The translations under genes and the position numbers were made by a program. From a virus (taxonomy: Duplodnaviria > Caudoviricetes), in IMG/VR virus record IMGVR_UViG_3300037478_000283, positions 4,567-68,566 of that record: a DNA stretch of 64,000 bases; one strand, 5' to 3'. Below are positions 775 to 50,207 of the stretch, one piece after another. Each line of letters starts with the position of its first letter. The first letter of the stretch is position 1. The notes below the pieces were generated by a model. That model had not been told where the DNA came from. It worked only from the letters and a program-made list of their open reading frames with translations, and ran no database searches.

Positions 775-1079
775 TCCGCTGCGACGACTGGCGAGAGGGC
801 CGCGAGCTGGTGAAGGCCGGCCAGCAAGTGCTGCACGTATGGACGCCGACGCTCGAGCAGCGCCGAGCCGCCCGACCGCTCGTGTTCCGCCAGACGAAGC
901 TATGGGCGCACCTCGTCGACATGGACTTCGATCGGCTGGTGAAAACGGCGAGGGGTCTCGGTGTCGAGCGGGTCGTGGTCGAGCGCAAGGGGACGCACCT
1001 GCAGCACGTCGACCTTTGCGGCGGACCGTTGAAGAGAGCGATCGCGCGTTGCGAACGGGAGGCGACATGTCCCGCGTGA
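771..1079 (+). CDS. DUF4031-like small phage protein
   Basis: HLVDMDFDRLVKTARGLGVER...QHVDL resembles DUF4031; 4-nt overlap with upstream stop. Confidence 0.55.
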   Translation: MIRCDDWREGRELVKAGQQVLHVWTPTLEQRRAARPLVFRQTKLWAHLVDMDFDRLVKTARGLGVERVVVERKGTHLQHVDLCGGPLKRAIARCEREATCPA

Positions 1080-1585
1080 TGGAGTGGCCGATCTTGTTCT
1101 CGGGCCAGATGGTCCGTGCGATCCTCGAGGGCCGCAAAACAGTCACACGCCGAATGGATCGGCGGTGGCTGAAGCGGAAGCCGGGAAACAGGTTATGGGT
1201 GCGAGAAACATGGGGCCAACTCACCGGATACGGCAGTGGCCCAACTGAGCCAGTGTTCTGGCGGGCAGACTATTCCAGCACCGATCTTGAAACGCAGCAT
1301 CTGCCCAAATGGCGCCCATCGATCCACATGCCCCGCTGGGCGAGCCGCTTGCTGCTTGAGGTGACCGAGGAGCCACGGATCGAGCCGCTGAGCGATATGA
1401 CAGATGGCGAGGCAAAAGCGGAAGGCGTGACGCCATTCGCGTTTCCTGGTGGCATGATCCTAATCGGCGCTCACCTGCGAGCGTTTCAAATCCTGTGGGA
1501 CGCGATCAATGGCAAGCGCTACCCATGGAGCAGTAACCCGTCACCAGTACGGATCGCATTCCGCGAGATTGAGAGACGAGCATGA
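1067..1585 (+). CDS. ASCH/PUA-like phage protein
   Basis: EWPILFSGQMVRAILEGRKTVTRR...LWVRETW...WRPSIHMPRWASRLLLEVT, a recognisable phage ASCH-like family; ATG 1067 after GGGAGG. Confidence 0.8.
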   Translation: MSRVMEWPILFSGQMVRAILEGRKTVTRRMDRRWLKRKPGNRLWVRETWGQLTGYGSGPTEPVFWRADYSSTDLETQHLPKWRPSIHMPRWASRLLLEVTEEPRIEPLSDMTDGEAKAEGVTPFAFPGGMILIGAHLRAFQILWDAINGKRYPWSSNPSPVRIAFREIERRA

Positions 1586-6328: not shown

Positions 6329-6330
6329 TC

Positions 6331-7293: not shown

Positions 7294-7523
7294 CCCGCCA
7301 CTACACCCGCGACGACGACCAGAGCCGCTACACCGATGGGTACTCGTTCGGCGTCATGGAGTCGATGCGTGAGTGTCGGGAGACGATCGCCGATCAAGCC
7401 AAGCGGTTGCGGCTGTCTGATAGCGCCCTGGCGCAGGTCCTCGCAGCGCTCGCCGAGTGCCACCGGAGATTGATGGAGCCCGAGCCAAACCGGACATCTC
7501 CGCACCATAGGACGAAGCAATGA
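7290..7523 (+). CDS. hypothetical protein
   Basis: GTGA overlap; helical amphipathic sequence. Confidence 0.5.
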   Translation: MTRHYTRDDDQSRYTDGYSFGVMESMRECRETIADQAKRLRLSDSALAQVLAALAECHRRLMEPEPNRTSPHHRTKQ

Positions 7524-7542
7524 GCGCGGAGCAACAGCGTGC

Positions 7543-7755
7543 GTGACCACCCATCGATGCCACCTGATCCACGCCCACCAGCTCCGCCCAGGGGACGAGG
7601 TGATCATTGTTGCGGGCGATCGGTTGCGGGTGGTGGAGTCGGTCATGCCGTGCACCTACAACGGCAGACCAGCGATCAAGGTGGTGACGGCTGGACGAAG
7701 TCGGAGCGAGATATATCTTGGGACTACCCATACCGTTTTCCTGAAGGTAGAATGA
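7543..7755 (+). CDS. hypothetical protein (SH3/KOW-like)
   Basis: QLRPGDEVII...RVVESV beta-rich pattern. Confidence 0.5.
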   Translation: MTTHRCHLIHAHQLRPGDEVIIVAGDRLRVVESVMPCTYNGRPAIKVVTAGRSRSEIYLGTTHTVFLKVE

Positions 7756-11799: not shown

Positions 11800-12150
11800 G
11801 TGGCGGCTGACGTGGCTGCTGTGACCGGCGTGTCGGCCCGCGCTATGTTGGGGCGGTCCCAGCGTCGGCCGGTAGCCAGGGCCCGCATGCTTGCCTGGTG
11901 GCTATCAAGGGCAGCGTCAGGATGCAGCTACCTCGAGCTGTCCCGATACTGGCGCCGGGACCATTCGACACTAGTGCAGGCCTGCCAGCGGCTCGAGCGG
12001 TGCCTGGTGGTCGGCGGATGGGCCAGGCCCCTGCTCTGGCAGGTGCTGGCCGCTCAGCCGTCATGCTCCGCGCAGGTAGCTGAGGTCGTCGTCGCCACGG
12101 GTGGCGTAGTAGGCGAGGGCGACAGCGATGGCGGCATCGCCGTGCCGTGA
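11800..12150 (+). CDS. stand-alone DnaA domain IV (Bac_DnaA_C)-like protein
   Basis: VAAVTGVSARAMLGRSQRRPVARARMLAWWLSR...SYLELSRYWRRDHSTLVQAC matches the domain IV pattern (R..ar..a.yl.r...S..eig..f.RDH.TV); 3' end overlaps TerL convergently. Confidence 0.8.
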   Translation: MAADVAAVTGVSARAMLGRSQRRPVARARMLAWWLSRAASGCSYLELSRYWRRDHSTLVQACQRLERCLVVGGWARPLLWQVLAAQPSCSAQVAEVVVATGGVVGEGDSDGGIAVP

Positions 12151-13524
12151 CTTGCCGCGGTCGTCCCGGGACCTGGCCGATGGCAGCTTCGGGATCCCGT
12201 TGACGAGCTGGATCTGCTGAAGGTCGCTGCGTACGTTCGAGCAGCGCGGGATCAGGATCGTCTGCTGCTCGAACGCGGCCCGAAGCTCGGGAAGGTTCTC
12301 GGCGTACCACCGCTCGCTCAGGTGCAGCTCCTCGATCCGGTAGCGACCAAACTGGTCCGCGGCGGCCTCCGCCAGCTGCATGCCGATCCCGCCGGCATCA
12401 AGGACGCCCTGCTGCAGCCGTGGCAACGCGCCTCCGATGTGGAGCAGGATCCGCTCCTGCTGCCGGAACGGCACGTTGCGGAGCTCGACCAGGAACGGGA
12501 CCCGACGGACCAGGTTGTACTGGACCGCGACCGGGGCGATCACGGTGATGTCGCTGGTCCTGCCACAGTCGAAGCCGAACGAGTGATCCAGTCCAGGATC
12601 GAGCTCGCGCAGCAGTGGGTCGACTACAGCGTGCAGCCACTGATTGGTCTGCTCGGTGCGCTGCTCATCGGAGAGCTCCAGGAAGCTGTCATCCAGGTCG
12701 AGCCGCAGCACCGGAGCGTCGTGCATGCACCGCTCGATCATCGGACCGGTCAGGTAGGACTCGCCCGATGCTGCCGGGATGCAGTGGAACTCCTCGTCTG
12801 CGTGGCGAACGGCGGTCCGGATGATCATGTCCCGCCAGGCCTGTTCGCCGCGCTCGGTCCAGCAGATCCCATGCCCAAGGCAGATCCGTCGATAGAGCCC
12901 CTGCTGGATCGCCTCGTCGAAGGTCGTTCGGTGGACGGAGTGATCTGTTTCGCCGATCCTGGCCGCGACGATCATCCTGTTGAACGGGTTCTGATCGCCC
13001 CTGTGGGTCGAGATCAGGGCGATCCGGCCGCCCCAGACCAGGAATGCGGTAGCGGCCGCCATCCATGCTTCCAGGTCATCGTGATGCGCGGCCTCGTCGA
13101 GGATCGCGTAGCCACGTTTGCCACGAAGCCGCCTCGGGTGGGACGAGAGCGAGTGGATCCGATGCCCGCTGGCAAAGCGGATCTCGAACGCCAGTATGTC
13201 CTCCTTCTCGTCCTCGATCATCGTCTGCTGGGCAGCCCCGGTCAGCACGCAGAACGCGGCCACCCACATCTCGCAGTCACGAATGAACTCCTTGGCGTCC
13301 CTCTCGGTGGCCGCCATGAACCAGACGTCCTTGCCGCCGTCCCGCCGCCGCAGCATCGCCGTCATCACTGCTTCGGCGGCAGTGCACCAGGTAATCCCGA
13401 TCTGCCGGCTCTTCTCGCAGATCTTGACCAGGCTACGGTCAGCGACCCATCGCTGCTGGTACGGGAGCAGGACGGCTGGCAGCGGCTCGGCTGCCACTTC
13501 GTCCCGAGGAGCCGCCTGATTCAC
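12061..13524 (-). CDS. terL: terminase large subunit, Mu gp28-like
   Basis: LLPYQQRWV...EKSRQIGITW, ILDEAAHH, LISTHRGDQNPF, FGFDCGRTSDITV, HGDAAIAVALA; GTG 13524 with GGAGG RBS (ORF track extends to 13575). Confidence 0.92.
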   Translation of the reverse strand: MNQAAPRDEVAAEPLPAVLLPYQQRWVADRSLVKICEKSRQIGITWCTAAEAVMTAMLRRRDGGKDVWFMAATERDAKEFIRDCEMWVAAFCVLTGAAQQTMIEDEKEDILAFEIRFASGHRIHSLSSHPRRLRGKRGYAILDEAAHHDDLEAWMAAATAFLVWGGRIALISTHRGDQNPFNRMIVAARIGETDHSVHRTTFDEAIQQGLYRRICLGHGICWTERGEQAWRDMIIRTAVRHADEEFHCIPAASGESYLTGPMIERCMHDAPVLRLDLDDSFLELSDEQRTEQTNQWLHAVVDPLLRELDPGLDHSFGFDCGRTSDITVIAPVAVQYNLVRRVPFLVELRNVPFRQQERILLHIGGALPRLQQGVLDAGGIGMQLAEAAADQFGRYRIEELHLSERWYAENLPELRAAFEQQTILIPRCSNVRSDLQQIQLVNGIPKLPSARSRDDRGKSRHGDAAIAVALAYYATRGDDDLSYLRGA

Positions 13525-13760
13525 ACAGAAGCGCCCCTCCGCAGGAATGACCGGGTCAGCCCGCGGATCAGGCAACTGACGGTGGTGCCGATCCGGGCGG
13601 CGGCTCGCTGCAGGGCCAACACGTCGGCCGGCGACATGTCACACCGAACCGAATGGCGCCCCTCGGGCTCGAGGTCATCGACGGCCAACCCTAGATCCTC
13701 GAGGAAGCTGGCAAAAGCGGCCCTCTGGTCTTCGTTAGCCGCAGGGTGGATGACAGCCAT
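13521..13760 (-). CDS. small protein with RHH/CopG-like C-terminus, coupled to terL
   Basis: SVRCDMSPADVLALQRAAARIGTTVSCLIRGL; GTGA overlap with terL start. Confidence 0.55.
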   Translation of the reverse strand: MAVIHPAANEDQRAAFASFLEDLGLAVDDLEPEGRHSVRCDMSPADVLALQRAAARIGTTVSCLIRGLTRSFLRRGASV

Positions 13761-20428: not shown

Positions 20429-21259
20429 TCATGCAGCGCTCCTGAGCTCGACGTTCTCATTCCCAAGTATCGCGTCGATGTCGATCACAGCCTCAGCGAC
20501 ACACCGACACTGAACTGGCTCACCAGGGATCCCCTCGCTCGGCGGGTCATTCCAGGTGAACGTCTGGCCGTCCAGCGCGGCATGCTCGTCCCGGACCCGT
20601 TCGTCCCGAGACGTGCGCCAGATCCATCGATCGATTCCGATGTTGCGCTGCCGGGCCTCGTTGAGCTGGCCGTTCAGCTTGTTGATCTGGTCCCTGGCGA
20701 TCACCTTGGCTCGGCCCTCGAGGGTGCCGAACTCCAACGGCAACCCTCGGCGTTTCCATTGGTCGCGAAGCACCTCGTGCCTGATGCCACCCGCGAATGC
20801 GCGTTCGATGTCCGGCCGCAGGTCGACCTGGCGCACCGATTTGATCAGACTTGCATTGCCGGCGATCCACTCGTTCAGGAGACCACCTCGAAACCCCTCG
20901 CTGGCCACAACCTCGACGCCGATCGCTGAGTTCAGGCGCCGATAGAACTCGCCCCTGTGACGACCATCGACCCGACGGGCCTGCTCTGATGCGATCTCTC
21001 GCGCAGCCGAGTCGCTCATGACGGTTCGCAGCTTTGGGCCGAGAGCCAGGATCGCCCGGCTCAATGCGGATGGCAGACGCACCGAGCCATCACCGGCGGC
21101 GTCGCCACGCGCACTGATCGCCGATGCATACGCCGGCAGCACCGTTGCGTTGATGTGCTGCCACGCTGCGATCCGAAGCCTGAGCAGCCGTCGCTCGTAG
21201 TCCACCGCCAGCCGCGTCGGCGGCTCAACGGCCCGCATTCGACTGCGGCGGCGTGACAT
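20429..21259 (-). CDS. minor head/head morphogenesis protein (SPP1 gp7 / Mu F family)
   Basis: RAKVIARDQINKLNGQLNEARQ...WIWRTSRDERVRDEHAALDG...PGEPVQCRC. Confidence 0.92.
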   Translation of the reverse strand: MSRRRSRMRAVEPPTRLAVDYERRLLRLRIAAWQHINATVLPAYASAISARGDAAGDGSVRLPSALSRAILALGPKLRTVMSDSAAREIASEQARRVDGRHRGEFYRRLNSAIGVEVVASEGFRGGLLNEWIAGNASLIKSVRQVDLRPDIERAFAGGIRHEVLRDQWKRRGLPLEFGTLEGRAKVIARDQINKLNGQLNEARQRNIGIDRWIWRTSRDERVRDEHAALDGQTFTWNDPPSEGIPGEPVQCRCVAEAVIDIDAILGNENVELRSAA

Positions 21260-22868
21260 CGGGCTCCGGTGCAGGTGCGGGCTTGTCCGACCCTTCGACG
21301 ATCGGCTCCAACAGCTTGGCGGCGGCCGATTCGTCAGGGATCGATTCAGGGAACGCGATCGGCAAGAACCGGACCGCGGTGAGCTTGGGGATCCGTCCCT
21401 CCGCGACCGCGGTGGCGAGCTCGAGGAAGCTGGTGATCTGAGCGCCGTTGAGCGCGGCGGACTGCACCGACTTGATTTCGGTTCCCGGTGCCGACTCCTC
21501 CGCCACGACCCCATCGCCGTCCGGCTCCGCGGCCAGCTCGCCAAGATCCGGATCTTCGGTTTCGGCCTCGATGTGGCCGACCGATCCGAGCTCGTGCCGC
21601 GTCTTGCGGATCTCGTCCGCCGATACGGCACCGATCGTCCAGTACGCCTGATCGGCCTGCGCGTTAGCGGTCCGAACCCGCGCCTGTTCTTCCTCGCTCG
21701 GTTGCCAGAGTGGGTTCCACTGGATCGTCCACTCCGGCGGTCGCTGGCCACGGGTCGGTCCCTGCTTGGCGGCGAACAGGATCTCGAGGCACCAATTGAG
21801 CCATGGCGTTGCCAGCTGATCCTGTTTCGCGCCGATCCAATCGTAGTAGGACCGGGTTTCGCCTGAGTTGCTACCACTGTTCAGCCCGCCCGCCGTTTCC
21901 CCGAGTAGCCTCGATCGTGGGATCGGCGTCGCGGCCACGAGCGCGTTGACGAATCGGTCTAGCAGGTCTGACCAGCCAGCGATCGACATCGTTTGCTGGA
22001 TGAATTCTTCGCCTGGCCGCTTCTCGTTACCCGCGTCCAGAAACAGACCGTGGAGGATATCGGCGCCGAGGTCCAGGGCTCGCAAGCGTGTGCGAAGCAG
22101 ATCTTCGTCTTGACCTGAGCGTGCCGCCAGTAGCCCGATGATCTTGAACACTCTGATCGTGAAGTTGTGCAGAAGCGTTTCGCTGTACCCGTGGACCGTC
22201 ATGTACTGACGGAGTCGCGGCCATAGTCGGCTGTACTGCGATACGCCCCACCAGCCGCGTTGGCGCATGCGTCGGTACGGCAGCGGGAAGCCGGTGAACT
22301 TCTGGACCCGTGACGCGTGAACGATCTGCTCCTGCAAGCGGCCGTCGCTGAAGCTGAGCTGATACGCTTCGGGCGGCCCGTTGCCGACGGAGATCGGGGA
22401 CACGTCCCATCGGTCCACCACCACGAACCCGCGGACCCGGTCGATTCGATTTAGATCGAGCGGCTCAATGGGCGGCAACCCGTCGTCCACTGCTGCAATC
22501 AATAACGCACCGCCGTACTTGTCGCCCCACCGGTGCAGGTCGGACAGGCAACGCATGATGCTCGTCGGTCGACCCTCGCAGTCGCGACCGATCTCCTCGA
22601 TCGCCGACATGACTGCCTTTACGTCGAGTCCAGGCGCGCCGTCGATCGTGAACCCCTCGCGAGTCAGGTCGTCGGCTGGTAGGTCGACGATCCGAGCCGC
22701 GATCGCCTCGCACTGATACAGGCTCTCGACTTCCGACTGCCCCAGCTCCACGCGCTGCATCGTGGTCCACCGAGACTTGTCACGAAGCTCATCCCCGATG
22801 CCGGTGACGATGTTATACAGGCCGTCGCCACGTAGCTGTGCCTGCTCCGGCGGCGAATCTAGGGGCAT
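21225..22868 (-). CDS. portal protein, DUF1073 type
   Basis: DGLYNIVTGIG...LY...IAARIVDLPADDLTREG...GGALLI...VHASRV...IPRSRLLGETAGGLNSG...YYDWI...WNPLWQ. Confidence 0.92.
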   Translation of the reverse strand: MPLDSPPEQAQLRGDGLYNIVTGIGDELRDKSRWTTMQRVELGQSEVESLYQCEAIAARIVDLPADDLTREGFTIDGAPGLDVKAVMSAIEEIGRDCEGRPTSIMRCLSDLHRWGDKYGGALLIAAVDDGLPPIEPLDLNRIDRVRGFVVVDRWDVSPISVGNGPPEAYQLSFSDGRLQEQIVHASRVQKFTGFPLPYRRMRQRGWWGVSQYSRLWPRLRQYMTVHGYSETLLHNFTIRVFKIIGLLAARSGQDEDLLRTRLRALDLGADILHGLFLDAGNEKRPGEEFIQQTMSIAGWSDLLDRFVNALVAATPIPRSRLLGETAGGLNSGSNSGETRSYYDWIGAKQDQLATPWLNWCLEILFAAKQGPTRGQRPPEWTIQWNPLWQPSEEEQARVRTANAQADQAYWTIGAVSADEIRKTRHELGSVGHIEAETEDPDLGELAAEPDGDGVVAEESAPGTEIKSVQSAALNGAQITSFLELATAVAEGRIPKLTAVRFLPIAFPESIPDESAAAKLLEPIVEGSDKPAPAPEPDVTPPQSNAGR

Positions 22869-41524: not shown

Positions 41525-42190
41525 CTATTCAAGCCACGTCCACGTGACCCGTCGACGGATATCGGAGATCGTGAAAGCCGATACGCCAAAATCCTCCGAG
41601 ATCTCTGCAGCTGTTCGCTTGTCACCGCGTATCGCACGGACATCGGACGGAGTCAGTTTCTTGCGCCTGTTCGCATGAATGTCGGCAGCTGTACGGCGAG
41701 TGGGAATGTGCGACCAGGAGGATCCGGACCGGATGGCACTCACATGGGTCTGCGAAAGCTCAAAGTGTCGAGCTATCTCCGTGATCGTTCCGGTGGACTG
41801 ACGGATCGCAAGAGCTATTTCCGTGGTGATCTTTCCGTTTTTGTTTCCATGGCGAATAGTATCGATTCGATTCGATCTGCGAGTATCCCATCGGAGATTT
41901 TCCAGACGACAGTCCGAACGGATTCCGTTTTCATGACACGCCTCCATCCCGGGTGGGCATGGACCTCGGAAAGTCTGCAAGACCAAACGATGCACAAGCC
42001 CCTGCTTGCCGCCCGTCAAGCTGACCACGTGGTATCCGTTGGTCAAGGGCGAGCACCGCAGCGCACGAGGGGTTGTCATCCTTCTACCTCTGGTATTCGT
42101 CCACGATCGCACGCGTCCGAGATCGCTGACGTCGTAATTGGGGTGACCATCGATCGACTTCCACATTTCCATAGGATAGGATTCTAGCAT
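41525..42190 (-). CDS. NUMOD4-HNH homing endonuclease inserted antisense in the baseplate operon
   Basis: MWKSIDGHPNYDVSDLGRVRS...VHRLVL.TF.GP...ACHENG.R.D.RLENLRW plus two C-terminal HTH repeats; alternative start 42172. Confidence 0.9.
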   Translation of the reverse strand: MLESYPMEMWKSIDGHPNYDVSDLGRVRSWTNTRGRRMTTPRALRCSPLTNGYHVVSLTGGKQGLVHRLVLQTFRGPCPPGMEACHENGIRSDCRLENLRWDTRRSNRIDTIRHGNKNGKITTEIALAIRQSTGTITEIARHFELSQTHVSAIRSGSSWSHIPTRRTAADIHANRRKKLTPSDVRAIRGDKRTAAEISEDFGVSAFTISDIRRRVTWTWLE

Positions 42191-43607
42191 GGCCGCACCA
42201 TGGGGACTATCAGATTCCGGTTACTCCAGGCCTCGCTATTCGGAGATCCGTTCCGTACTCGAACAGCGGTTCAAGGGGCGCTTCGGCGAGAACCGCAACA
42301 CCAGCGACGACACGCCCGACGGGCACATCATCAGTTGGGTCTCCGAGATCATGGATCTGGTCTTCCAGGCGGACGAGGGCGCCTATCTTTCCACGTTCGT
42401 GGCGAGTGCCAACGGCGCCGCTCTCCGCGAACTGGGTGTCGGGATCATCGGCGAACCCAAGAGTGCCGCTGCCAGCACGGTCGAGCTCGTGCTCTACGGC
42501 GACGACACCACTGTCGTGCCGGCGCAGAGCCAAGCGAAGATTGCGGATTCAACGGTCGTTTTCGAGACCGATGCCTCCGCCACTCTCGGTGCCACCGATC
42601 AGACTTGGGTGGTACGGATCGATACGGTTGTAGATTCTCAGCTGTATCGGATCACGGTCGACGGAGACGACTACGATTTCACCAGTGACGGCTCAGCGGC
42701 CATGCAGGAGATCGTCGATGGCCTGGTGGCTGAGCTCGACGCCGATGCCGATATCACCGCCTACAACGGAGGCGTGGACGGCAACGGGCTCGGACTGATC
42801 GTGCTCGACACGACCGCCCCGGTTGCAGCGCCAACCGTCAACGGCAACATGACGGTCAGACATGCCGCAAGGGTTGCCGCGACCGCGATCGCTACGGGGC
42901 CATTCTCGGCTCTCGCCGGATCAACCTGGTCCATCGAGACCCCAGTGAGCGGATGGATCGGCGCGGCCAACACCGATGACGCGGTGCTCGGCCAAAACGA
43001 CGAAACAGACGAGGAATACCGACAGCGTATCCGCCTTTCGACTCGTTACGGTGGGATCGCGGCAAATGTCCTGAAGGTCACAGGTGTCACGTACGCCCGC
43101 ACGTACGAAAACGACACGGATGACACCGATGCCGAGGGGCGACCGCCGCATAGCGTGGAAACCGTGGTGCTAGGCGGCGCCGATGACGATGTGGCACAGG
43201 CGATCTGGGATATGAAGGCGCAGGGCGTGCAGACAATAGGACTCGGCACACCGGACAGCGGGATAGCTATCGACGAGGCGGGCGTGAGCCGAACCGTCAA
43301 CTTCTCCCGGGCCACGGAACTCGATATCTACGTGACCGTGACCGTCACGCAGGGCGAAGACTGGCCCACGACAGGGACTCCACTTGCAGAGATCCGCGAC
43401 GCGATCGTTGATTATGTCAACGCGCTTGGCGTCGGTGGCGACGTCACGCCGGCCGGCATCTTCGCCGCAGCGGTCGGCGCTGTAACGCAGATCGCGAACC
43501 TCGCGATCCTGATCGATGACACGACTCCGCCTGTGACATCGGGAGTATTCGCGATCACGACACGACAGATCGCAACAACCGATTCGACCAAGGTGGTGGT
43601 GGCGTGA
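42189..43607 (+). CDS. baseplate J/gp47 protein with inserted module
   Basis: GAALRELG...GPFSALAG...GQNDETDEEYRQR...YEN.TD.TDAEGRPPHSVE.VV.GG. Confidence 0.92.
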   Translation: MAAPWGLSDSGYSRPRYSEIRSVLEQRFKGRFGENRNTSDDTPDGHIISWVSEIMDLVFQADEGAYLSTFVASANGAALRELGVGIIGEPKSAAASTVELVLYGDDTTVVPAQSQAKIADSTVVFETDASATLGATDQTWVVRIDTVVDSQLYRITVDGDDYDFTSDGSAAMQEIVDGLVAELDADADITAYNGGVDGNGLGLIVLDTTAPVAAPTVNGNMTVRHAARVAATAIATGPFSALAGSTWSIETPVSGWIGAANTDDAVLGQNDETDEEYRQRIRLSTRYGGIAANVLKVTGVTYARTYENDTDDTDAEGRPPHSVETVVLGGADDDVAQAIWDMKAQGVQTIGLGTPDSGIAIDEAGVSRTVNFSRATELDIYVTVTVTQGEDWPTTGTPLAEIRDAIVDYVNALGVGGDVTPAGIFAAAVGAVTQIANLAILIDDTTPPVTSGVFAITTRQIATTDSTKVVVA

Positions 43608-44197
43608 GCCACGGGACACTACACGGGCTGATTCACGGCACCGGTGCCGATCTGGTCATTGACCAGGTTCAAAAGGCGCTCGACCGGCTCTATGTGCAGC
43701 TCGAGGGTTCTCCGAAGATCGAAGGTCTGGCGGAGTGGATCGGGGAACAGCTGCAGCATGTTGAAGAGATTGTCCACGACACGGCATGGTTCCGGTTCAC
43801 ACGACAGGCACACGGGGAACAGCTCGATCGCCTACTTGATAACTATTCCGAGAAACGTGCCGGCATGAGCGATGCGGATGCCGAGGCAATGCTGCTCGTG
43901 CTGAACCCTGCACTGTTTCAGTTCAGAAGCGCGATGCGAATGATCGCTATTCTCGTGGTGCTCACGAATGGTACCGGATCCACGTTTGGCTACGACGAGG
44001 ATTACCCGCTAGCATTCGTGGTGACCCTGCACGATGTCACGACGGCCCGCGGCGCACACTGGAATCGCGTGCTGCGAAAGGCCAAGGCTGAGGGCGTGAG
44101 GATGGATACCGTCGTGGCAGAGGATTTAGCCAACGCGTTTCAGTTCGACATCGGTCCAGGCTTCGATCAAGGCAAGTTCGCCTACGTACTCGAGTGA
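43604..44197 (+). CDS. baseplate wedge (DUF2612-like)
   Basis: SPKIEGL...AHGEQLDRL...FQFDIGPGFDQGKF. Confidence 0.8.
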   Translation: MSHGTLHGLIHGTGADLVIDQVQKALDRLYVQLEGSPKIEGLAEWIGEQLQHVEEIVHDTAWFRFTRQAHGEQLDRLLDNYSEKRAGMSDADAEAMLLVLNPALFQFRSAMRMIAILVVLTNGTGSTFGYDEDYPLAFVVTLHDVTTARGAHWNRVLRKAKAEGVRMDTVVAEDLANAFQFDIGPGFDQGKFAYVLE

Positions 44198-44204
44198 GGG
44201 CAAC

Positions 44205-45197
44205 ATGGCACGTCCCGACAAACTACCATTTTGGAACACTGGCGGTGCGAACCGAACGGAGCCCAGCGACGGCAAGAAGTCCGAAGGCTGGACTCTCAAC
44301 GAGATCCCGCCGGCCAGCTGGTTCAACTATTGGCAGAACAAGGTCCGTGAGTGGATCCAGCACCTAGATGGGACGTTGCCTATGGCCGGCGATGGGACCG
44401 ACGGCGACGTTACGATCGCTGGTACCGTAACGCTCACGCGTGACATGTACTATCTGACGCTGACCGTGCCGAACACCGCGATCCTCGACACCGCCGGTTT
44501 TCGCGTGTTCGCGAGCCAAAGCATCACAGTCGAGACCGGTGGGATCATTCGCCGCAACGGCAACGCGGCGAGCGGTGTGACTGGCGGTTCGATCCATGAC
44601 GCAACGATCGCGAGCCTGGCTGGTGGGTTGAACGGTGGCGCTGGAGGATCGGGTGCTGCCGCGCCAGGAGTCGCTGGTGCCTCGGCGACAAACGGACTCG
44701 GTGGAGGTGGAGGGAAAGGAGGCGATATCACGGGCTTGTACTCTGGCGGTGCCGCCGGGAGCGCGAACGCCCCCGCAGCGAACAAGGGCGGCTTTCGTCA
44801 CCAGCCGTGGCTCGGCTATCTGCTCTGTCCGAACGCGTCGAGTAGCCTAGAGTTCCTCCGCGGCGGAGCCGGCGGTGGTGGAGGTGCCTGCAACACTGCT
44901 GGTCAGGACGGTGGAGGCGGTGGAGGTGGTGGTGGTGTCGTGATTCTGTGCTCGCCATCGATCACCGTTGCGGGCCAAGTCCAAGCACGCGGAGGGGTCG
45001 GCGCTGATGCATCAGGCGGAGAGGCTTCCGGCGGTGGCGGTGGCGGCGGTGGCCTGATCATCGCGGTCGGTCGGAACATTGACACGACGGCTGGACTGAT
45101 CGATACGACTGGCGGATCCGGAGGTGACCGATCCGGGACGACGAGCGAGGATGGCGTTGCGGGCTCGACCGGGACATACATCCCGTTCACGGTGTGA
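44205..45197 (+). CDS. tail fibre protein, Gly-rich
   Basis: EPSDGKKSEGW....IPPASWFNYW N-terminal attachment motif; GGGGG-rich body. Confidence 0.85.
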   Translation: MARPDKLPFWNTGGANRTEPSDGKKSEGWTLNEIPPASWFNYWQNKVREWIQHLDGTLPMAGDGTDGDVTIAGTVTLTRDMYYLTLTVPNTAILDTAGFRVFASQSITVETGGIIRRNGNAASGVTGGSIHDATIASLAGGLNGGAGGSGAAAPGVAGASATNGLGGGGGKGGDITGLYSGGAAGSANAPAANKGGFRHQPWLGYLLCPNASSSLEFLRGGAGGGGGACNTAGQDGGGGGGGGGVVILCSPSITVAGQVQARGGVGADASGGEASGGGGGGGGLIIAVGRNIDTTAGLIDTTGGSGGDRSGTTSEDGVAGSTGTYIPFTV

Positions 45198-45205: not shown

Positions 45206-45493
45206 CTATAGATCGCAACCTGACGACGGATCGAGGCACACTCCGCCGAGCGTACAATCGACGTCGTGTTCGCAAGGTTGGCGACATTCGGATCGTGTCG
45301 GCGATATAAGCACGCACACCCTTGTCGGCTCCGGGCATCCAATCGGGAAGCCATCGGGGCACGGGCAGACTTCTCGATTTGCGTCGCACTCGGCATCGCC
45401 AGTAGATCCGTCGTCTACCGATCGATCATCGTCAGCAATGGGTACGGGTCCGCATCCCGCCAAGATCACCAGAATCGCAATGCGTCGCATCAC
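45206..45493 (-). CDS. Cys-rich lipoprotein
   Basis: RRIAILVILAGC lipobox; CRQPCEHDVDC..GGVC motif. Confidence 0.75.
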   Translation of the reverse strand: MMRRIAILVILAGCGPVPIADDDRSVDDGSTGDAECDANREVCPCPDGFPIGCPEPTRVCVLISPTRSECRQPCEHDVDCTLGGVCLDPSSGCDL

Positions 45494-45756
45494 GCAGCGC
45501 CTTTCTGGATAATGGCGAGTTCCTGCTGGCGACGCTTGGCGGCTGCGAGCTCACGTTCAGAATCCGTGAGTGTGCCCATGGTCTCGAAGCTACGGGCGAT
45601 CACGTACGGGACGATCGCTGCTGCTGCTGCGAAGGCTGCGGCCGCTGCCTGTTGCGGCGCGCTGTCCGATGCCGCCCACATGGCAGCCCCGAACAGACCA
45701 CCACCGACGGCACACAGCGCGGATAATGATGCGAGTACTCGTGCGACTTGAATCAT
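45490..45756 (-). CDS. two-TM membrane protein
   Basis: Two hydrophobic helices around SAPQQAAAAA; GGAGG RBS. Confidence 0.7.
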   Translation of the reverse strand: MIQVARVLASLSALCAVGGGLFGAAMWAASDSAPQQAAAAAFAAAAAIVPYVIARSFETMGTLTDSERELAAAKRRQQELAIIQKGAA

Positions 45757-45947
45757 GTTTCGATCCTCCCGTTTGGCGCGGGTTTGAGAGTTGCGGGTGC
45801 GGCAGGGCGCCAACCCTGACGCGTCCACCGGGCCCCGGCTTTTGCCCGGCAGTCCGGGCCGGGGGAGGATCACCCTCGACCCGACACGATCACAATGATC
45901 AGGATAGGTAGCGCGCGCAACGCTGGACGTTCGGGCAGGTGGGAGGT

Positions 45948-46180: not shown

Positions 46181-46981
46181 CTACCCGGCCCGCGAGCCTG
46201 GGCGAGTCAGCTCCGACAGCTGTCGCCGTGTGAGCCCGAGTGTGCGTGCCACGTCAGCGTGTGCCCTGCCCTCCTCGAGCATGTGTAGCGCGAGTCGTCG
46301 CCGGGCCACCGCGATGGCACGTGTGATCGCGACGTCGGCTCGCCTCGCTCGGTTGCCGCGGTGCAGCCCAAGCTCTCGGAGATATCGCCGAGCGGTCCGC
46401 CAGTCCACGCCGATCTCCTGGGCAGCCTGCTGCGGCTCCACGCCGGCCGTGACCATCGCCGCGAGCTCAGCCTGCCTGCCGAGTCGTGCCCGAGTACGCT
46501 CCGTCGGCACATCGGTCGCCTGCAGCTCACGGCGCACGGTACCGGGGTGGATCCCGAGCTCGCGTGCAAGGTCGGCGGTCGAGGTGACCCCCTCGGCGAC
46601 GAGCCGGCGGAGGTCGTCTCGCCACTGCTCGTGCCGCTGCCCGGTCTCGAGGTCTCGTGGCAGCGGAAGGTCGGCGACGGCTCGACGCACAGTCGACACT
46701 GAACACCCGAGCTCAGCCGCGATCTGATCCAGCGTGAGCCCGTCGCGGCGTAACTGACGAGATCGCTCGGTTCGGTGGTCGCGGGGCCCGGTGGCGGACT
46801 TGCTGCGTTTGCGCTCGGCGGCCCTAAGCGCGCCGATGCCTCGCAGCTCTTGCAGTAGCCGGCGCGTGGGCTGGTAGCTCGATCCGATCGCCTCCGCGAT
46901 CCTCGTTTCGCCCCAGCCGCAGGCGTAGAGGTCGATCGCTTGAGCGATCTGTTCGCGGGTGTGTTCGGATCGCCGGGGCAT
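46181..46981 (-). CDS. protein with five tandem HTH motifs
   Basis: IAEAIGSS, IAAELGCSVSTVRR, LARELGIHPGTVRR, AAQEIGVDWRTARR, VARTLGLT. Confidence 0.85.
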   Translation of the reverse strand: MPRRSEHTREQIAQAIDLYACGWGETRIAEAIGSSYQPTRRLLQELRGIGALRAAERKRSKSATGPRDHRTERSRQLRRDGLTLDQIAAELGCSVSTVRRAVADLPLPRDLETGQRHEQWRDDLRRLVAEGVTSTADLARELGIHPGTVRRELQATDVPTERTRARLGRQAELAAMVTAGVEPQQAAQEIGVDWRTARRYLRELGLHRGNRARRADVAITRAIAVARRRLALHMLEEGRAHADVARTLGLTRRQLSELTRPGSRAG

Positions 46982-47105
46982 TAGTCGTTGCCAGATGGGT
47001 CGGACGTGTCGACGTCGCCGACGATGATCATGCCATCCTGATCCGTGAGGTAAGCGACCGATATCCAAGTCGAGATAAACCTACACCGAAGAGACGAGCA
47101 CGACG

Positions 47106-47660
47106 ATGACAGAACGATCGCCGAACGAATGGATCGAGATGCCACTTTCACAGCTCGACCCGAACCCCAAAAACCCACGAATGATCACGGGCGAAAACCT
47201 TCGCCGGCTCCGGCGGTCAGTTCGCCGATTCGACCTGGTCGAAAACCTGGTGTGGAATCGAAGAACGAAACGGCTCGTCGGCGGGCATCAACGGATGCGA
47301 GTACTACGGGCGCTCAACCGTGAAAAGGCGATGGTGTGTGTGGTCGATATTGACGAAGAGGAGGAGGCTGCACTCATGATCCAGCTCAACAATCCTCACG
47401 CTCAGGGCGAATTTTCCGAGGATCTGAAGAAACTACTCGACGATCTCCAGGACTTCGACTCGTTCGATGCGTTGGGGCTGGACCAGCTGGGCGACTTCGA
47501 CGACGACATGGATCTTGCCGGCGAAAGCGACGAATCAGAGGAGCCAGACTCCGGACTGACCTACTCCGTGATCGTGGACATGACCACCGAAGACGAGCAA
47601 GGGAAGCTTCTCCAAGAGCTCGAGGATAGGGGATATCAATGCCGCTTGCTCATCTCGTAG
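47106..47660 (+). CDS. ParB/Srx-like protein with small C-terminal ferredoxin-like domain
   Basis: LDPNPKNPR...LRRSVRRFDLVENLVWN...LVGGHQR...LNN; YSVIVD..TEDEQ..L...L..RGY.C. Confidence 0.88.
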   Translation: MTERSPNEWIEMPLSQLDPNPKNPRMITGENLRRLRRSVRRFDLVENLVWNRRTKRLVGGHQRMRVLRALNREKAMVCVVDIDEEEEAALMIQLNNPHAQGEFSEDLKKLLDDLQDFDSFDALGLDQLGDFDDDMDLAGESDESEEPDSGLTYSVIVDMTTEDEQGKLLQELEDRGYQCRLLIS

Positions 47661-48748
47661 TCGAGACGAAGGTTTCGACGTCGGTCCGAGCGCGCCAAGT
47701 CGAGGCGTTGTTTGACGTACCAAGACAGGAGAAGTGCCGGCTTGAATGGAAGGGCGACGTGCCGATCGACGAGCGCCAGTGGAACGTCGGCCTGATCGTG
47801 GGACCGAGCGGATCGGGCAAGAGCTCGATCGCCCGGCACCTGTTCCCGGAGCAATACGCTGCCGAGCTCGAATGGAACGCTCCGTCGGTCATCGACGATT
47901 TTCGCGGTGACCTCGGCATCGACGCGATCTCGTCTGCGCTCTCCAGCGTCGGGTTCAACACGATCCCGGCGTGGCTCCGCCCGTACGCGGTGCTTTCGAC
48001 CGGCGAGCGGTTCCGGGTCGAGGTCGCGCGACGCGTGCTCGAGCTCCCTGATCCTGTAGTGATCGACGAGTTCACCTCCGTCGTGGATCGGCAGGTTGCC
48101 CAGATCGGCTCCCATGCGATCCAAAAGTTCGTCCGACGCAACAACCGGAAGCTCGTTGCTGTCGGGTGCCACTTCGATGTGATCGACTGGCTTCAGCCAG
48201 ACTGGATCCTCGAGCCGGCGACCATGAGCTTTCAATGGAGGTCGGTTCAACGAAGGCCAACGCTCGACATCGAGGTGGCAAAGGTCACGTATGACGCCTG
48301 GCGCCTTTTCGCTCCGTTCCACTATCTGACCGCCGATCTTAATCAATCGGCTCAGTGTTTCTGCACGTTTGTCGGAGGCCGACCCGCGGCATTCATCTCC
48401 GTCATTCACTTCCCCCATCCGAAGGTTCGCGACATCAAACGCGTCCCGAGACTCGTGACTCTGCCGGACTGGCAGGGTCTGGGCCTCGCGCCGCACCTGT
48501 CCGACACGATGGGCAGTGCCTACAAGGCGATCGGGTACCGCCTGCGGACGTACCCGGCCCACCCCGCGCTCGTGATGACATTCCGCAAGTCGCCGCACTG
48601 GAGACAGGTCAAGGAGGCGGGGACGTTCCAGGGACTTCGAGGCAACTCGGCCAAGTGCAATATCGGAACCCAACGCCCATGCGCCACGTTCGAATACTGC
48701 GGGCCGGCTATGGACCGAGTCGACGCTCGACGTCTGGTGGGAGTCTGA
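47639..48748 (+). CDS. ABC-type ATPase fused to GNAT-fold acyltransferase
   Basis: GPSGSGKSS, signature LSTGERFR, VVIDEFTS, H-loop VGCH; then RLVTLPDWQGLGLA acyl-CoA motif A. Confidence 0.88.
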   Translation: MPLAHLVVETKVSTSVRARQVEALFDVPRQEKCRLEWKGDVPIDERQWNVGLIVGPSGSGKSSIARHLFPEQYAAELEWNAPSVIDDFRGDLGIDAISSALSSVGFNTIPAWLRPYAVLSTGERFRVEVARRVLELPDPVVIDEFTSVVDRQVAQIGSHAIQKFVRRNNRKLVAVGCHFDVIDWLQPDWILEPATMSFQWRSVQRRPTLDIEVAKVTYDAWRLFAPFHYLTADLNQSAQCFCTFVGGRPAAFISVIHFPHPKVRDIKRVPRLVTLPDWQGLGLAPHLSDTMGSAYKAIGYRLRTYPAHPALVMTFRKSPHWRQVKEAGTFQGLRGNSAKCNIGTQRPCATFEYCGPAMDRVDARRLVGV

Positions 48749-49094
48749 ACAGGCGCAGTCGTCCCGGACACGGCACAGGTTCGCAAGGTCGAGGCTCATC
48801 CAGGAGCCAACCGATGGGGCCCATGAACCATCGGCTGCTGGCCTCCGTGACGGACCCCAACACGCGCACGCTGCCGATAACGGCGCCGCGGATGTACCCG
48901 TCTGGCTCAGGCATGACTAAACCGAGACCCCTCGCGAACCTGATGCCGTCGCGATCGACCCGGAGCGACGCATGGATCCATATCCGCTCACCAATGATGG
49001 CAGGCGGAGGTTGCCAGCTTCGATTCTCGATGGGCTTGCAACCCATTACAACGAGCCAAGCCCACGGTTGTCTGAGGCTGAGTGCTAGCATCAC
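48708..49094 (-). CDS. ASCH domain protein
   Basis: ALSLRQPWAWLVVMGCKPIENRSW...IWIHAS...GAVIGSV...W.L..P. Confidence 0.92.
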   Translation of the reverse strand: MMLALSLRQPWAWLVVMGCKPIENRSWQPPPAIIGERIWIHASLRVDRDGIRFARGLGLVMPEPDGYIRGAVIGSVRVLGSVTEASSRWFMGPIGWLLDEPRPCEPVPCPGRLRLFRLPPDVERRLGP

Positions 49095-49435
49095 GGCACC
49101 ACCATGATGGGCCAGCGACGTCGCATCTCGAGTAAAGTAGCACTCAAGACGAGTTCTCGCTTATTGGCGCCAGTTCGAACTGGCACACCGCGCTCCTGTA
49201 GCAGCTCGATCAGTAGCTGCTTCGGCATTGCCTTGGCCGTTTTTTCGATCTCTTCCATATCGCGTCGCGATGCATCCCGATCCTCCTGCTCAAGCCAGTC
49301 TGTCGCCGGAGGTAAGAACGACGCACGGACCTCACTGAACGTCGTGCCCGGATCGGGCTTCACCTGCCTCCCGCACGCGCCGGCCCCGTAGCAGGGTGCG
49401 TAGTATCGGCGGTGAATGTAGCGAGTCTCGTTCAT
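49091..49435 (-). CDS. hypothetical protein
   Basis: AAAGGAG RBS; C-terminal SAP-like KQLLIELLQERGVPVRTGANKRELV. Confidence 0.6.
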   Translation of the reverse strand: MNETRYIHRRYYAPCYGAGACGRQVKPDPGTTFSEVRASFLPPATDWLEQEDRDASRRDMEEIEKTAKAMPKQLLIELLQERGVPVRTGANKRELVLSATLLEMRRRWPIMVVP

Positions 49436-49557
49436 TGTTCGGTCTCCTTTCGTGGTGCGCGTAGCTGTTGTCGACGTTGGTACAGGGCTCGTTCGGACGT
49501 AAGTACGCGCTCGAGCTCGGCGCGGTCCATGTTAGTCGCGGTCTGTTCGGGTTTCAT
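49432..49557 (-). CDS. 41-aa hypothetical protein
   Basis: GAGG RBS, ATGA overlap. Confidence 0.4.
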   Translation of the reverse strand: MKPEQTATNMDRAELERVLTSERALYQRRQQLRAPRKETEQ

Positions 49558-49586
49558 GATTCAGTTCCTCAAGAGCGCTGGGGTGC

Positions 49587-50207
49587 TTACAATCGCATCG
49601 GCATCACAACGTAGGTCCACTCACACGAAAAATCGCCCGCGTCGGCCTTGATCACGACGGGATCGAGCGCGCCTCCTATGTAGAGCGCGATCGTGCCGAC
49701 CTTACGATCGCATGCGTCCGCCAGCTTGGCGACGTGTGCGAGATAGTGGCCGTTTAGGCCGATTTTTGCCGCTGGGTTACCGTGCGGCGTTTTGGGGACC
49801 ACTTGCCACCATGGCGGAAAGTGGTTTGCCGAGAGCACAACGTTCGTGGCCGCGAGCTCGCGGCCGTGCTTGTCGATCACTCGCACGTGGGCGCTCTCAC
49901 AATTCGGCCGTATCGCAATCGTGTGATTCGACCGCGCCATTTTTAGCACGTTCGCCAGCGTCGCCGCGGGGACCTTTTTCGCGCCTACGTCGGCCGATGG
50001 GCTGGCCGACTTGCAAGCGAGTAAGCGGTGGCCGTCGGTCGCGACCGCGGTGCCCCGTTCGGAATCGAGTAGAATTTGCGTCAGATTCACGCGGCTATCG
50101 TCGCGGCTCGCACACTCGAGTAAGGCGGCTAATTCGGCGCGGGTGAACGTCCATTCGTTTTCTTGGGTTCCAGACGGGTGCTCGCAGTCGATCACTTCGA
50201 TTTTCAT
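49587..50207 (-). CDS. truncated DNA polymerase III beta-clamp-like protein
   Basis: ASRDDSRVNL...VATDGHRL...FPPWWQVVP...IGLNGHYL...YVVMPMRL; 206 aa, no domain I. Confidence 0.85.
   Translation of the reverse strand: MKIEVIDCEHPSGTQENEWTFTRAELAALLECASRDDSRVNLTQILLDSERGTAVATDGHRLLACKSASPSADVGAKKVPAATLANVLKMARSNHTIAIRPNCESAHVRVIDKHGRELAATNVVLSANHFPPWWQVVPKTPHGNPAAKIGLNGHYLAHVAKLADACDRKVGTIALYIGGALDPVVIKADAGDFSCEWTYVVMPMRL

What the first reader, a model, noticed from the sequence alone, without database searches (positions are those of the whole stretch)
47106..49094. ParB-like + ABC-ATPase-GNAT fusion + convergent ASCH: candidate DNA-acylation write/erase cassette
Seen: a ParB/Srx gene overlaps a 369-aa soluble ABC ATPase (all motifs present, no permease nearby) fused to a GNAT with the acyl-CoA motif, whose 3' end overlaps an ASCH gene on the other strand; a second ASCH-like gene is at 1067. 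Established: ParB-like genes commonly head phage DNA-modification cassettes; Mu Mom is a GNAT-fold DNA modifier; the ASCH protein YqfB hydrolyses N4-acylcytidine. Inference: ATP-driven acylation of phage DNA or tRNA for anti-restriction, with ASCH as reader or salvage enzyme. I do not know of a characterised substrate for this fusion.
Basis: partly seen in the sequence, partly recalled or inferred. Interest (0 to 1): 0.75.

Follow-up and report, generated by a model that had tools for sequence, protein, structure and literature searches.

The report
Phage ParB/ABC-GNAT acylation module with ASCH
This uncultivated phage carries a widespread but never-tested gene pair (a ParB-like protein plus an ATPase fused to an acyltransferase), probably built to put acyl groups on DNA bases, and next to it a small gene of the enzyme family recently shown to remove acetyl groups from cytosine.

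Summary
All three genes are real: ParB-like (47106-47660), ABC-ATPase::GNAT (47639-48748, every ATPase motif and the acyl-CoA loop intact, AF2 pLDDT 94.6) and a convergent ASCH gene (48708-49094) that overlaps it by 41 nt. The pair ParB + ABC-GNAT is a huge phage family (phrog_11143; >7,400 homologues). ParB lies directly upstream in about 174 of 190 loci and is fused to the enzyme in some phages. The module usually sits just before the terminase genes, though not in this window.

ASCH co-occurrence is not random. ASCH fills the first downstream slot in 35/184 loci against 16/2159 other slots, in many lineages, with two ASCH families and both orientations. 46 of 51 keep the catalytic GxKxxExR motif.

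The DNA base-acylation reading is plausible, but it is not new. Aravind's group predicted it for ABC+GNAT proteins (2013, restated 2021). I found no experimental test. This scan has already reported the same module on at least ten other genomes.

New supporting context comes from two sources. Phage ParB proteins activate a DNA dioxygenase (2026). In a 2026 preprint, all 19 ASCH proteins tested deacetylated ac4C.

The target (DNA, RNA or protein) and the acyl group remain unproven. The 'second ASCH' at 1067 is only a lead.

The parts
47106..47660 (+). ParB/Srx-fold protein (184 aa). It has an N-terminal NTP-binding fold with NxR (N23, R25) and GHxR (G60-H61-x-R63) motifs, an acidic linker and a small C-terminal domain of about 40 aa. 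It has no HTH. It is the predicted activator/DNA-loading partner of the enzyme.
   Evidence: Family matches are. Motif conservation across 143 partner ParBs is. A ParB gene lies directly upstream on the same strand in about 174/190 loci. It is fused to ABC-GNAT in P0223, P0180, P0198, P0192, P0267, P0204, P0147 and P0170.
47639..48253 (+). ABC-type ATPase domain of the fusion protein (residues 1 to about 205). All catalytic motifs are intact and there is no transmembrane partner.
48254..48748 (+). GNAT acyltransferase domain (residues about 206-369). It has an acyl-CoA pyrophosphate-binding loop Q279-G-L-G-L-A and family-invariant H228-Y229.
   Evidence: Pfam Acetyltransf_1 is weak in this protein (0.064) but significant in homologues.
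48708..49094 (-). ASCH-domain protein (128 aa) with the GxKxxExR catalytic octapeptide (GCKPIENR, residues 18-25). It is the last gene of a three-gene leftward operon and converges on ABC-GNAT with a 41-nt overlap. It is the predicted N-acyl-base amidohydrolase (eraser or salvage enzyme).
49091..50207 (-). Context only: the two upstream genes of the leftward operon that ends in ASCH. One is a 114-aa unknown protein whose end overlaps the ASCH start by 4 nt. The other is a 206-aa protein resembling a beta-clamp domain. Neither was found in the other 189 loci at BLAST-clustering level (both are singleton clusters).
1067..1585 (+). Possible second, very divergent ASCH/PUA-like protein (phrog_874, GRKTVTRR motif). 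Membership is unconfirmed.
   Evidence: A homologue lies 2.2 kb upstream of ParB in L008.

Best explanation
ParB-like + ABC-ATPase::GNAT is a phage nucleic-acid base-acylating machine, most likely acting on double-stranded phage DNA late in infection.

Proposed mechanism:
- The ParB-like protein (an NTP-binding fold plus a small C-terminal domain, without an HTH) acts as a cognate activator or clamp that holds the enzyme on DNA.
- The ABC domain dimerises on ATP. It uses the ATP cycle to expose or flip a target base, or to move along the DNA.
- The GNAT domain transfers an acyl group from an acyl-CoA to an exocyclic amine. N4 of cytosine is the favoured guess because of the ASCH partner.
- The convergent ASCH gene encodes an N4-acyl-cytosine-type amidohydrolase. 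It removes the mark from polymer or from released nucleosides (erasure or salvage).
- In this phage the writer sits at the end of the late (tail-fibre/lysis) region. ASCH belongs to a short leftward operon that starts at a divergent intergenic region. That layout suggests the two are expressed at different times.

Shown: gene reality, domain folds, intact motifs, ParB coupling and fusion, ASCH positional enrichment, and linkage to late and packaging genes.

Inferred: the substrate polymer, the base, the acyl group, the timing, and the anti-restriction role.
For: (1) All ATPase motifs and the acyl-CoA loop are conserved across 87 diverse homologues. The AF2 model has pLDDT 94.6 and shows ABC NBD + GNAT.

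(2) ParB is directly upstream in about 174/190 loci and its gene overlaps the enzyme gene. ParB-ABC-GNAT fusion proteins exist.

(3) The ParB partner matches the N-terminal module of phage ParB-DNA-methyltransferase fusions (phrog_498, E 1e-22).

(4) There is an experimental precedent. [quoted passage not shown]

(5) ASCH fills the first downstream slot in 35/184 loci against 16/2159 other slots (odds ratio 31). There are at least 14 state changes on the enzyme tree. Two ASCH families are involved (phrog_3193 convergent; phrog_3136 co-directional in Streptococcus phages). 46/51 keep GxKxxExR.

(6) In a preprint, all 19 ASCH proteins tested, including the GKER subgroup (TRIP4, EOLA1, TthASCH), deacetylated ac4C, with Lys and Glu essential. 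YqfB hydrolyses N4-acylcytosines (PMC6972931).

(7) The module sits with late genes. TerL of four unrelated families starts within 4.5 kb downstream in 98/150 loci. In BcepMu-like phages the gene sits after the tail-fibre genes, a slot resembling that of mom in Mu.

(8) Donor-supply or tailoring genes are adjacent in some phages: PanD plus a CoA-transferase-like gene in Jace and L067, and a formyltransferase in AnClar, phiE255 and Komp_PAO1_1.

(9) Aravind's group published the same prediction.
Against: - There is no biochemical or analytical evidence for any member.
- The GNAT domain's nearest structures are generic small-molecule and protein acetyltransferases (RimI, GCN5, PaiA; TM about 0.6). 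It shows no similarity to Mom.
- The ParB partner has no recognisable DNA-binding domain. ParB/Srx folds also occur in non-DNA enzymes.
- The demonstrated ASCH substrates are RNA and nucleosides, not DNA.
- About 70% of loci have no ASCH.
- BcepMu-like phages have no annotated ParB upstream of the gene.
- The expression-timing argument rests on gene layout only. The promoter/terminator scan found nothing above chance.
Confidence: 0.5

Rival explanations
1. The target is RNA, especially tRNA. On this reading the protein is a TmcA-like ATP-dependent cytidine acetyltransferase that rewrites host or phage tRNA, for example to evade anticodon nucleases. ASCH would be the matching tRNA ac4C eraser.
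For: - The ATPase+GNAT architecture parallels TmcA, and 2zpa appears among the Foldseek hits.
- The ASCH activity demonstrated so far is on tRNA and nucleosides.
- Fmt-like formyltransferase neighbours occur in some phages.
Against: - The 2zpa match is poor (TM 0.27) and the ATPase is ABC-type, not a TmcA-type helicase.
- The obligatory partner is a ParB fold shared with DNA-methyltransferase fusions.
- An earlier follow-up in this scan (e1-3273011) reported that the tRNA-Met link did not hold. I did not retest this.
Confidence: 0.17
2. The GNAT domain acylates a protein or a small molecule, such as a host defence or nucleoid protein, a packaging protein, or a nucleotide or polyamine. ParB and the ABC domain would act only as a regulatory switch.
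For: - The nearest structural neighbours are protein and small-molecule GNATs.
- Phage GNATs such as phiKMV Rac acetylate host RNA polymerase (PMC7824862).
- A ParB-acetyltransferase fusion bound GTP in vitro, with no DNA role shown (PMC12704722).
Against: - It does not explain the 30-fold enrichment of an N-acyl-cytosine-type amidohydrolase next door.
- It does not explain the sharing of the ParB module with DNA methyltransferases.
Confidence: 0.15
3. The module serves DNA packaging or genome segregation. It would be a ParB/NTPase pair marking or organising phage DNA for the terminase, with the GNAT domain accessory or inactive.
For: - Its position is immediately upstream of TerS/TerL of four unrelated families in 98/150 loci.
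- A ParB plus NTPase pairing is reminiscent of partition systems.
Against: - The GNAT cofactor loop and the invariant His-Tyr are conserved family-wide.
- The ATPase is ABC-type, not ParA-type.
- In this window and in BcepMu-like phages the module is far from the terminase.
Confidence: 0.08

Closest known systems
ABC-ATPase-coupled GNAT system predicted to acylate a DNA nucleobase (Iyer, Zhang, Burroughs & Aravind, NAR 2013, as restated in Iyer et al. 2021, PMC7824862). Earlier notes of this scan call it COG2401, 'ABC-type ATPase fused to a predicted acetyltransferase domain'.
   Same: The domain architecture (soluble ABC ATPase + GNAT) and the phage setting are the same. The window protein is a full-length member of phrog_11143 (E 3e-103).
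   Different: Nothing differs structurally. The 2013 paper itself was not readable here, so I cannot say whether it already described the ParB and ASCH links. No member has been characterised experimentally.
Phage Mu Mom (a GNAT-fold DNA adenine modifier that uses Gly-tRNAGly; PMC13219725)
   Same: It is a GNAT-fold enzyme that modifies an exocyclic amine of a DNA base after replication. It is expressed late and sits at the end of the late region. BcepMu-like phages carry ABC-GNAT in a comparable slot.
   Different: There is no sequence relationship (hhalign probability 0.1%). Mom has no ATPase domain or ParB partner, has an HTH-like insert, and uses aminoacyl-tRNA rather than CoA. The window GNAT keeps a classical Q-x-x-G-x-A CoA loop.
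TmcA / NAT10 (ATP-dependent tRNA/rRNA cytidine N4-acetyltransferase; PDB 2zpa)
   Same: A P-loop ATPase is fused to a GNAT, and ATP hydrolysis is coupled to acetyl-CoA-dependent acetylation of a nucleobase amine. The product, ac4C, is the substrate of ASCH enzymes.
   Different: The ATPase is ABC-type, not a RecD-like helicase. There is no tRNA-binding domain. The structural match is weak (TM 0.27). The partner is a ParB fold.
ParB-dependent phage thymine dioxygenases (5mYOX176/ParB176; PMC13229309)
   Same: A small phage ParB-like protein with an NTP-binding domain and a C-terminal domain, but no obvious DNA-binding domain, is encoded next to a DNA base-modifying enzyme. It is required for that enzyme to act on dsDNA.
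   Different: The enzyme class differs (Fe/2OG dioxygenase against ABC-GNAT). Whether this window's ParB activates anything has not been tested.
ASCH amidohydrolases: E. coli YqfB (GKTR type) and TRIP4-ASCH / EOLA1 / TthASCH (GKER type)
   Same: The ASCH fold and the GxKxxExR octapeptide with the catalytic Lys and Glu are shared. The closest solved relative is the TRIP4 ASCH domain (E 4e-5).
   Different: This is a phage protein of phrog_3193 with unknown substrate. The known activities are on ac4C in tRNA and as free nucleoside, not on DNA.

Membership tests
phrog_11143 / ABC-ATPase::GNAT fusion family | Full-length match to the family profile, covering both domains | tested here: met
   phrog_11143 scores E 2.9e-103, residues 6-359 against profile positions 3-354 of 357. 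There are more than 7,400 homologues.
ABC ATPase superfamily | Walker A, signature (LSGGQ-like), Walker B with catalytic Glu, D-loop and H-loop, in an ABC NBD fold | tested here: met
   GPSGSGKS 55-62, LSTGE 119-123, VVIDE 140-144, TSVVD 146-150 and H178 are present and invariant or near-invariant in 87 sequences. Foldseek hits to MalK and HlyB NBDs score E about 1e-6. ATP hydrolysis itself cannot be tested here.
ABC transporter (import/export system) | A cognate permease or transmembrane domain encoded nearby or fused | tested here: not met
   No protein with more than 2 TM-like segments lies in 42-53 kb. None recurs in the 190 loci.
GNAT superfamily | GNAT fold with the beta4-alpha3 acyl-CoA pyrophosphate-binding loop (Q/R-x-x-G-x-G/A) | tested here: met
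   The domain model has pLDDT 91. Foldseek hits GNATs at E 7e-7 with TM about 0.6. Q279-G-L-G-L-A284 is conserved.
Mom family (Mu Mom-like DNA modifiers) | Sequence homology to Mom, including its HTH-like insertion | tested here: not met
   hhalign of the GNAT-domain profile against Mu Mom gives probability 0.1%, E 0.53.
TmcA/NAT10 cytidine acetyltransferases | RecD-like helicase ATPase domain plus GNAT plus tRNA-binding domain | tested here: not met
   The ATPase is ABC-type. The 2zpa Foldseek alignment has TM 0.27 and rmsd 13 A.
ParB/Srx (ParB-CTPase) fold | N-terminal ParB fold with box I and box II (GxxR) nucleotide-binding motifs | tested here: met
   PHROG ParB families score 1e-25. PDB ParB 4umk scores 4e-5. 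N23/R25 and G60-H-x-R63 are conserved in 143 partners. Pfam ParB_N is below its gathering score (17.8 against 26.3 bits).
Canonical chromosome/plasmid-segregation ParB | Central HTH parS-binding domain and a ParA partner | tested here: not met
   The alignments to ParB/Noc structures cover only the N-terminal domain. No HTH family was hit. The adjacent NTPase is ABC-type.
ASCH domain, GKER subgroup amidohydrolases | ASCH beta-barrel with the GxKxxExR octapeptide (catalytic Lys and Glu) | tested here: met
   Pfam ASCH scores 22.0 bits against a cutoff of 21.2. TRIP4 ASCH scores 4e-5. GCKPIENR lies at 18-25. Amidohydrolase activity cannot be tested here.
DNA base-acylation system (functional class) | Presence of an acylated deoxynucleoside in DNA that depends on the enzyme | not testable with these tools
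   This needs LC-MS or SMRT/nanopore data on DNA from a carrier phage or an expression strain.

The most novel reading that the evidence does not exclude
Phages run a reversible DNA acylation cycle. Late in infection a ParB-loaded, ATP-driven GNAT writes N4-acyl-deoxycytidine (acetyl, or larger groups such as beta-alanyl where PanD and CoA-transferase genes are attached) onto progeny DNA before packaging. A dedicated ASCH amidohydrolase, transcribed from the opposite strand at another time, erases or salvages the mark. This would be the first natural enzymatic DNA N-acyl-cytosine mark with its own eraser.
Probability: 0.2. Interest if true: 0.85.

Novelty: new member of a known kind. Interest (0 to 1): 0.5.

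Why it matters
If the prediction holds, this very abundant module (thousands of phages of bacteria and some archaea, including prophages of Streptococcus pyogenes and SSU5-type phage-plasmids according to earlier notes) would define a new chemical class of DNA modification.

That class would be ATP- and acyl-CoA-dependent base acylation, with a ParB-type activator and, in roughly a quarter to a third of cases, a matching deacylase.

It would bear on phage escape from restriction and other DNA-sensing defences. It would affect sequencing and mass-spectrometry artefacts, because N4-acyl-dC is labile. It could also supply new enzymes for DNA labelling.

For this window the value is confirmatory. 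It is one more well-preserved example, and it adds quantitative evidence that the ASCH link is real.

Tried and rejected
- ABC transporter reading: rejected. There is no permease, and the family is soluble and fused to GNAT.
- Mom homology: rejected.
- TmcA homology: analogy only.
- Canonical ParABS partition: rejected. There is no HTH and no ParA.
- PIG-L de-N-acetylase as a non-homologous substitute for ASCH. It is found convergent downstream in 4 syntenic Gimesia loci. It is followed by transaldolase and sulfatase, so it is probably host flank. I do not count it as evidence.
- Second ASCH at 1067: Pfam, PDB and hhalign are all negative. Only Atlas look-alikes hint at ASCH.
- Fmt-like formyltransferase linkage: not seen among the 189 fetched loci closest to the window protein. 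It is seen in AnClar, phiE255 and Komp_PAO1_1.
- The PF01144 CoA-transferase hit in the batch scan could not be traced to a locus. It may be a host gene.
- The promoter/terminator scan gave nothing above chance.
- The 2013 NAR paper and the 2020 ABC-ATPase classification paper are not held in the library.
- Searches for an experimental study of the family found none.
Full report
**What is there.** The window is part of a 68.6-kb uncultivated virus record, about 79% complete. It is a contractile-tailed phage, with TerL at 12061-13575 (-), portal at 21225-22868 (-), tail sheath at 34367, and baseplate and tail-fibre-like genes at 42189-45197. After two small membrane or lipoprotein genes and a multi-HTH gene come the three genes of the finding, at exactly the stated coordinates.

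- **ParB-like protein, 47106-47660 (+), 184 aa.** It matches PHROG ParB families at E 1e-25. It also matches the N-terminal module of phage ParB-DNA-methyltransferase fusions (phrog_498, E 1e-22). Pfam ParB_N is only weak. PDB ParB/Noc/Spo0J N-domains score down to 4e-5.
- **ABC-ATPase::GNAT, 47639-48748 (+), 369 aa.** It overlaps the ParB gene by 22 nt.
- **ASCH protein, 48708-49094 (-), 128 aa.** It overlaps the 3' end of the fusion gene by 41 nt. It is the last gene of a three-gene leftward operon, and its start overlaps the end of the upstream gene by 4 nt.

**The enzyme.** An alignment of 87 diverse homologues (33-59% identity) shows these features as invariant or near-invariant:

- Walker A (G55-PSGSGK-S62)
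- the signature motif (L119-S-x-G-E)
- Walker B with the catalytic Glu (D143-E144)
- the D-loop (T146-S-V-V-D150)
- the H-loop His178
- a family-specific WLQPDW motif at the domain junction
- in the C-terminal domain, H228-Y229 and R271..P276..Q279-G-x-G, the classical GNAT acyl-CoA loop

AlphaFold2 gives a confident two-domain model (pLDDT 94.6, pTM 0.89). Foldseek finds ABC nucleotide-binding domains for the first half and GNATs for the second. A separate model of the GNAT domain (pLDDT 91) hits only generic GNATs such as RimI, GCN5, PaiA and uncharacterised ones, with TM about 0.6. The domain shows no relationship to Mu Mom (hhalign probability 0.1%) and only an architectural analogy to TmcA (TM 0.27). 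There is no permease. The 'ABC transporter' annotations on phage homologues are therefore misnomers.

**How common it is, and what it travels with.** The protein is a full-length member of phrog_11143, function unknown (E 3e-103).

- The family is very large. At least 7,496 proteins score E<=1e-3 among the 8,000 candidates scored. In the 50%-identity representative library, 3,112 proteins score E<=1e-3 and 639 score E<=1e-30; the weaker hits probably include other ABC ATPases.
- It occurs in cultured phages of Gordonia/Rhodococcus, Streptococcus, Lactococcus, Oenococcus, Pseudomonas, Burkholderia, Porphyromonas, Rhizobium, Klebsiella, Aeromonas, Leptospira and Escherichia.
- In Firmicutes phages the ABC and GNAT halves are separate adjacent genes.
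- One representative carries a Hint/LAGLIDADG intein in the ATPase domain.

I fetched 189 further loci (viral contigs, one-per-species genomes and two cultured phages) and analysed them with ORF calling, jackhmmer and clustering.

- **ParB.** A ParB-like ORF lies directly upstream on the same strand in about 174 of 190 loci. At least eight representatives are ParB-ABC-GNAT single polypeptides. Across 143 partner ParBs the NxR and G-H-x-R nucleotide-binding motifs and a small C-terminal domain are conserved, and there is no HTH.
- **Terminase.** In 98 of the 150 loci with at least 3 kb downstream, a large-terminase gene starts within 4.5 kb on the same strand (median gap 812 bp). These belong to four unrelated terminase families: phrog_2, phrog_9, phrog_38 and GpA/phrog_15. 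A small-terminase gene often lies in between.
- **Other positions.** In this window the module is not beside the terminase. It ends the tail-fibre/lysis region. The same holds for BcepMu-like phages phiE255 and Komp_PAO1_1, where the gene follows the tail-fibre assembly gene, a slot like that of mom in Mu.

Both positions are next to late genes.

**Is the ASCH link real?** Yes.

- ASCH of the window's type (phrog_3193) occurs in 42/190 loci. In 23 of these it converges on ABC-GNAT with 3-96 nt of overlap, and in 29 it lies within about 500 bp downstream.
- A different ASCH family (phrog_3136; Pfam ASCH 1e-5) lies directly downstream on the same strand in nine Streptococcus-phage loci.
- A third small ASCH group occurs in two more loci.
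- Counting gene slots, ASCH fills the first downstream slot in 35/184 loci against 16/2159 of all other slots in the same loci. The odds ratio is 31 and Fisher p is 2e-28, uncorrected for relatedness.
- On a tree of 165 enzymes the adjacency state changes at least 14 times, against 19-24 for shuffled labels. The link is therefore spread over many lineages rather than one clade.
- In phage Jace the convergent ASCH still closes the operon even though two extra genes are inserted.
- 46 of 51 ASCH neighbours keep the GxKxxExR octapeptide. The window has GCKPIENR.

Still, about 70% of loci have no recognisable ASCH, so it is an accessory and not a core component.

**What the literature adds.**

I found no experimental study.
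- O'Toole et al. [quoted passage not shown]
- A 2025 survey (PMC12704722) found that phage ParB folds are typically fused to DNA methyltransferases. One ParB-acetyltransferase fusion bound GTP specifically; its relation to this family is unknown.
- A 2026 preprint from the Meskys lab reports that all 19 ASCH proteins tested remove ac4C from tRNA. These include the GKER-type TRIP4 ASCH, which is the window ASCH's closest solved relative. The motif's Lys and Glu were essential. YqfB hydrolyses N4-acylcytosine nucleosides.
- Mom is now known to use Gly-tRNAGly rather than a CoA thioester (PMC13219725). This is a warning that GNAT donors cannot be read from the fold.

**Most likely mechanism (confidence about 0.5).** ParB acts as an NTP-binding activator or clamp that brings or holds the enzyme on dsDNA. 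The ABC domains dimerise with ATP and use the cycle to expose a base or to move along the DNA. The GNAT domain transfers an acyl group from an acyl-CoA to an exocyclic amine. The ASCH partner points to N4 of cytosine, but that is a guess. ASCH then hydrolyses the amide, either on DNA (erasure) or on released nucleosides (salvage).

The shared ParB module with DNA methyltransferases, the ParB fusions, the late and packaging context, and the mom-like slot in transposable phages all favour DNA. None of them proves it.

Side evidence for larger acyl groups comes from a few phages:

- Jace and a related viral contig (L067) encode aspartate decarboxylase (Pfam 2e-33) directly after ABC-GNAT. PanD is otherwise rare in phages.
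- That gene is followed by a 225-aa protein with a partial CoA-transferase III match (2e-8). The PDB search for it was negative.
- Together these suggest beta-alanyl-CoA as a possible donor there.
- AnClar, phiE255 and Komp_PAO1_1 have a formyltransferase next to the enzyme.

**Rivals.** The alternatives are a tRNA/RNA target (0.17), a protein or small-molecule target (0.15) and a packaging or segregation role (0.08). The evidence for and against each is given in the Rival explanations section.

**Verdict.** It is a sensible but untested reading that matches a published prediction.

This scan has already reported the same module on at least ten other genomes, with the same conclusion. This window's contribution is quantitative evidence for the ASCH link and an example lying outside the terminase neighbourhood. 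It is a new member of a known, predicted but uncharacterised kind.

Noticed in passing
L001 (Rhodococcus/Gordonia phage Jace, NC_047974) 6098-7209; L067 3478-4516: Directly after ABC-GNAT come an aspartate decarboxylase (PanD, Pfam 2e-33) and a 225-227-aa protein with a partial CoA-transferase family III match (2e-8). PanD is otherwise almost absent from phage records. This may mean a beta-alanyl-CoA donor for the GNAT in this lineage.
   Followed up: partly
L190 (Burkholderia phage phiE255) 3468-5200; L191 (Pseudomonas phage Komp_PAO1_1) 3462-5191; L002 (Gordonia phage AnClar) 1086-2962: ABC-GNAT is followed by a short formyltransferase (PF00551). In the two BcepMu-like phages the pair sits after the tail-fibre assembly gene with no annotated ParB upstream. 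That slot resembles the position of mom in Mu.
   Followed up: partly
protein P0196 (715 aa representative): An ABC-GNAT homologue is interrupted by a Hint + LAGLIDADG intein shortly after the Walker A region.
   Followed up: no
L133, L136, L138, L141 (Gimesia/Planctomycetaceae genomes), about 7120-7860 (-): A PIG-L/LmbE-family de-N-acetylase (E 1e-26 to 3e-28) converges on ABC-GNAT exactly where ASCH sits elsewhere. Transaldolase and sulfatase genes follow, so it may simply be host flank beside a prophage remnant.
   Followed up: partly
window 1067-1962: A phrog_874 protein with an ASCH-like GRKTVTRR motif overlaps the start of a MazG-like nucleotide pyrophosphohydrolase (phrog_671, 1e-30). 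An AAA-type ATPase gene lies just upstream (91-774).
   Followed up: partly
window 2377-5976: A 1,199-aa protein rich in coiled-coil and acidic repeats, with several Cys-pair (zinc-ribbon-like) stretches, has no PHROG match at all.
   Followed up: no
window 49587-50207 (-): A 206-aa protein resembles a single domain of the DNA polymerase III beta clamp (Pfam DNA_pol3_beta_2 5e-4; TIGR00663 2e-5). Its best PHROG (phrog_3007) is labelled 'RusA-like resolvase', which looks like a mislabel.
   Followed up: no
window 45206-45873 (-): Two small genes lie between the tail-fibre-like gene and the module. One has a lipoprotein-type signal (LAGC) and the other has two hydrophobic segments. They may be spanin- or holin-like lysis genes.
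   Followed up: no
window 46181-47068 (-): A 295-aa protein made of at least three HTH_23-type helix-turn-helix units lies immediately upstream of, and divergent from, the ParB gene. It may be a regulator of the module.
   Followed up: no
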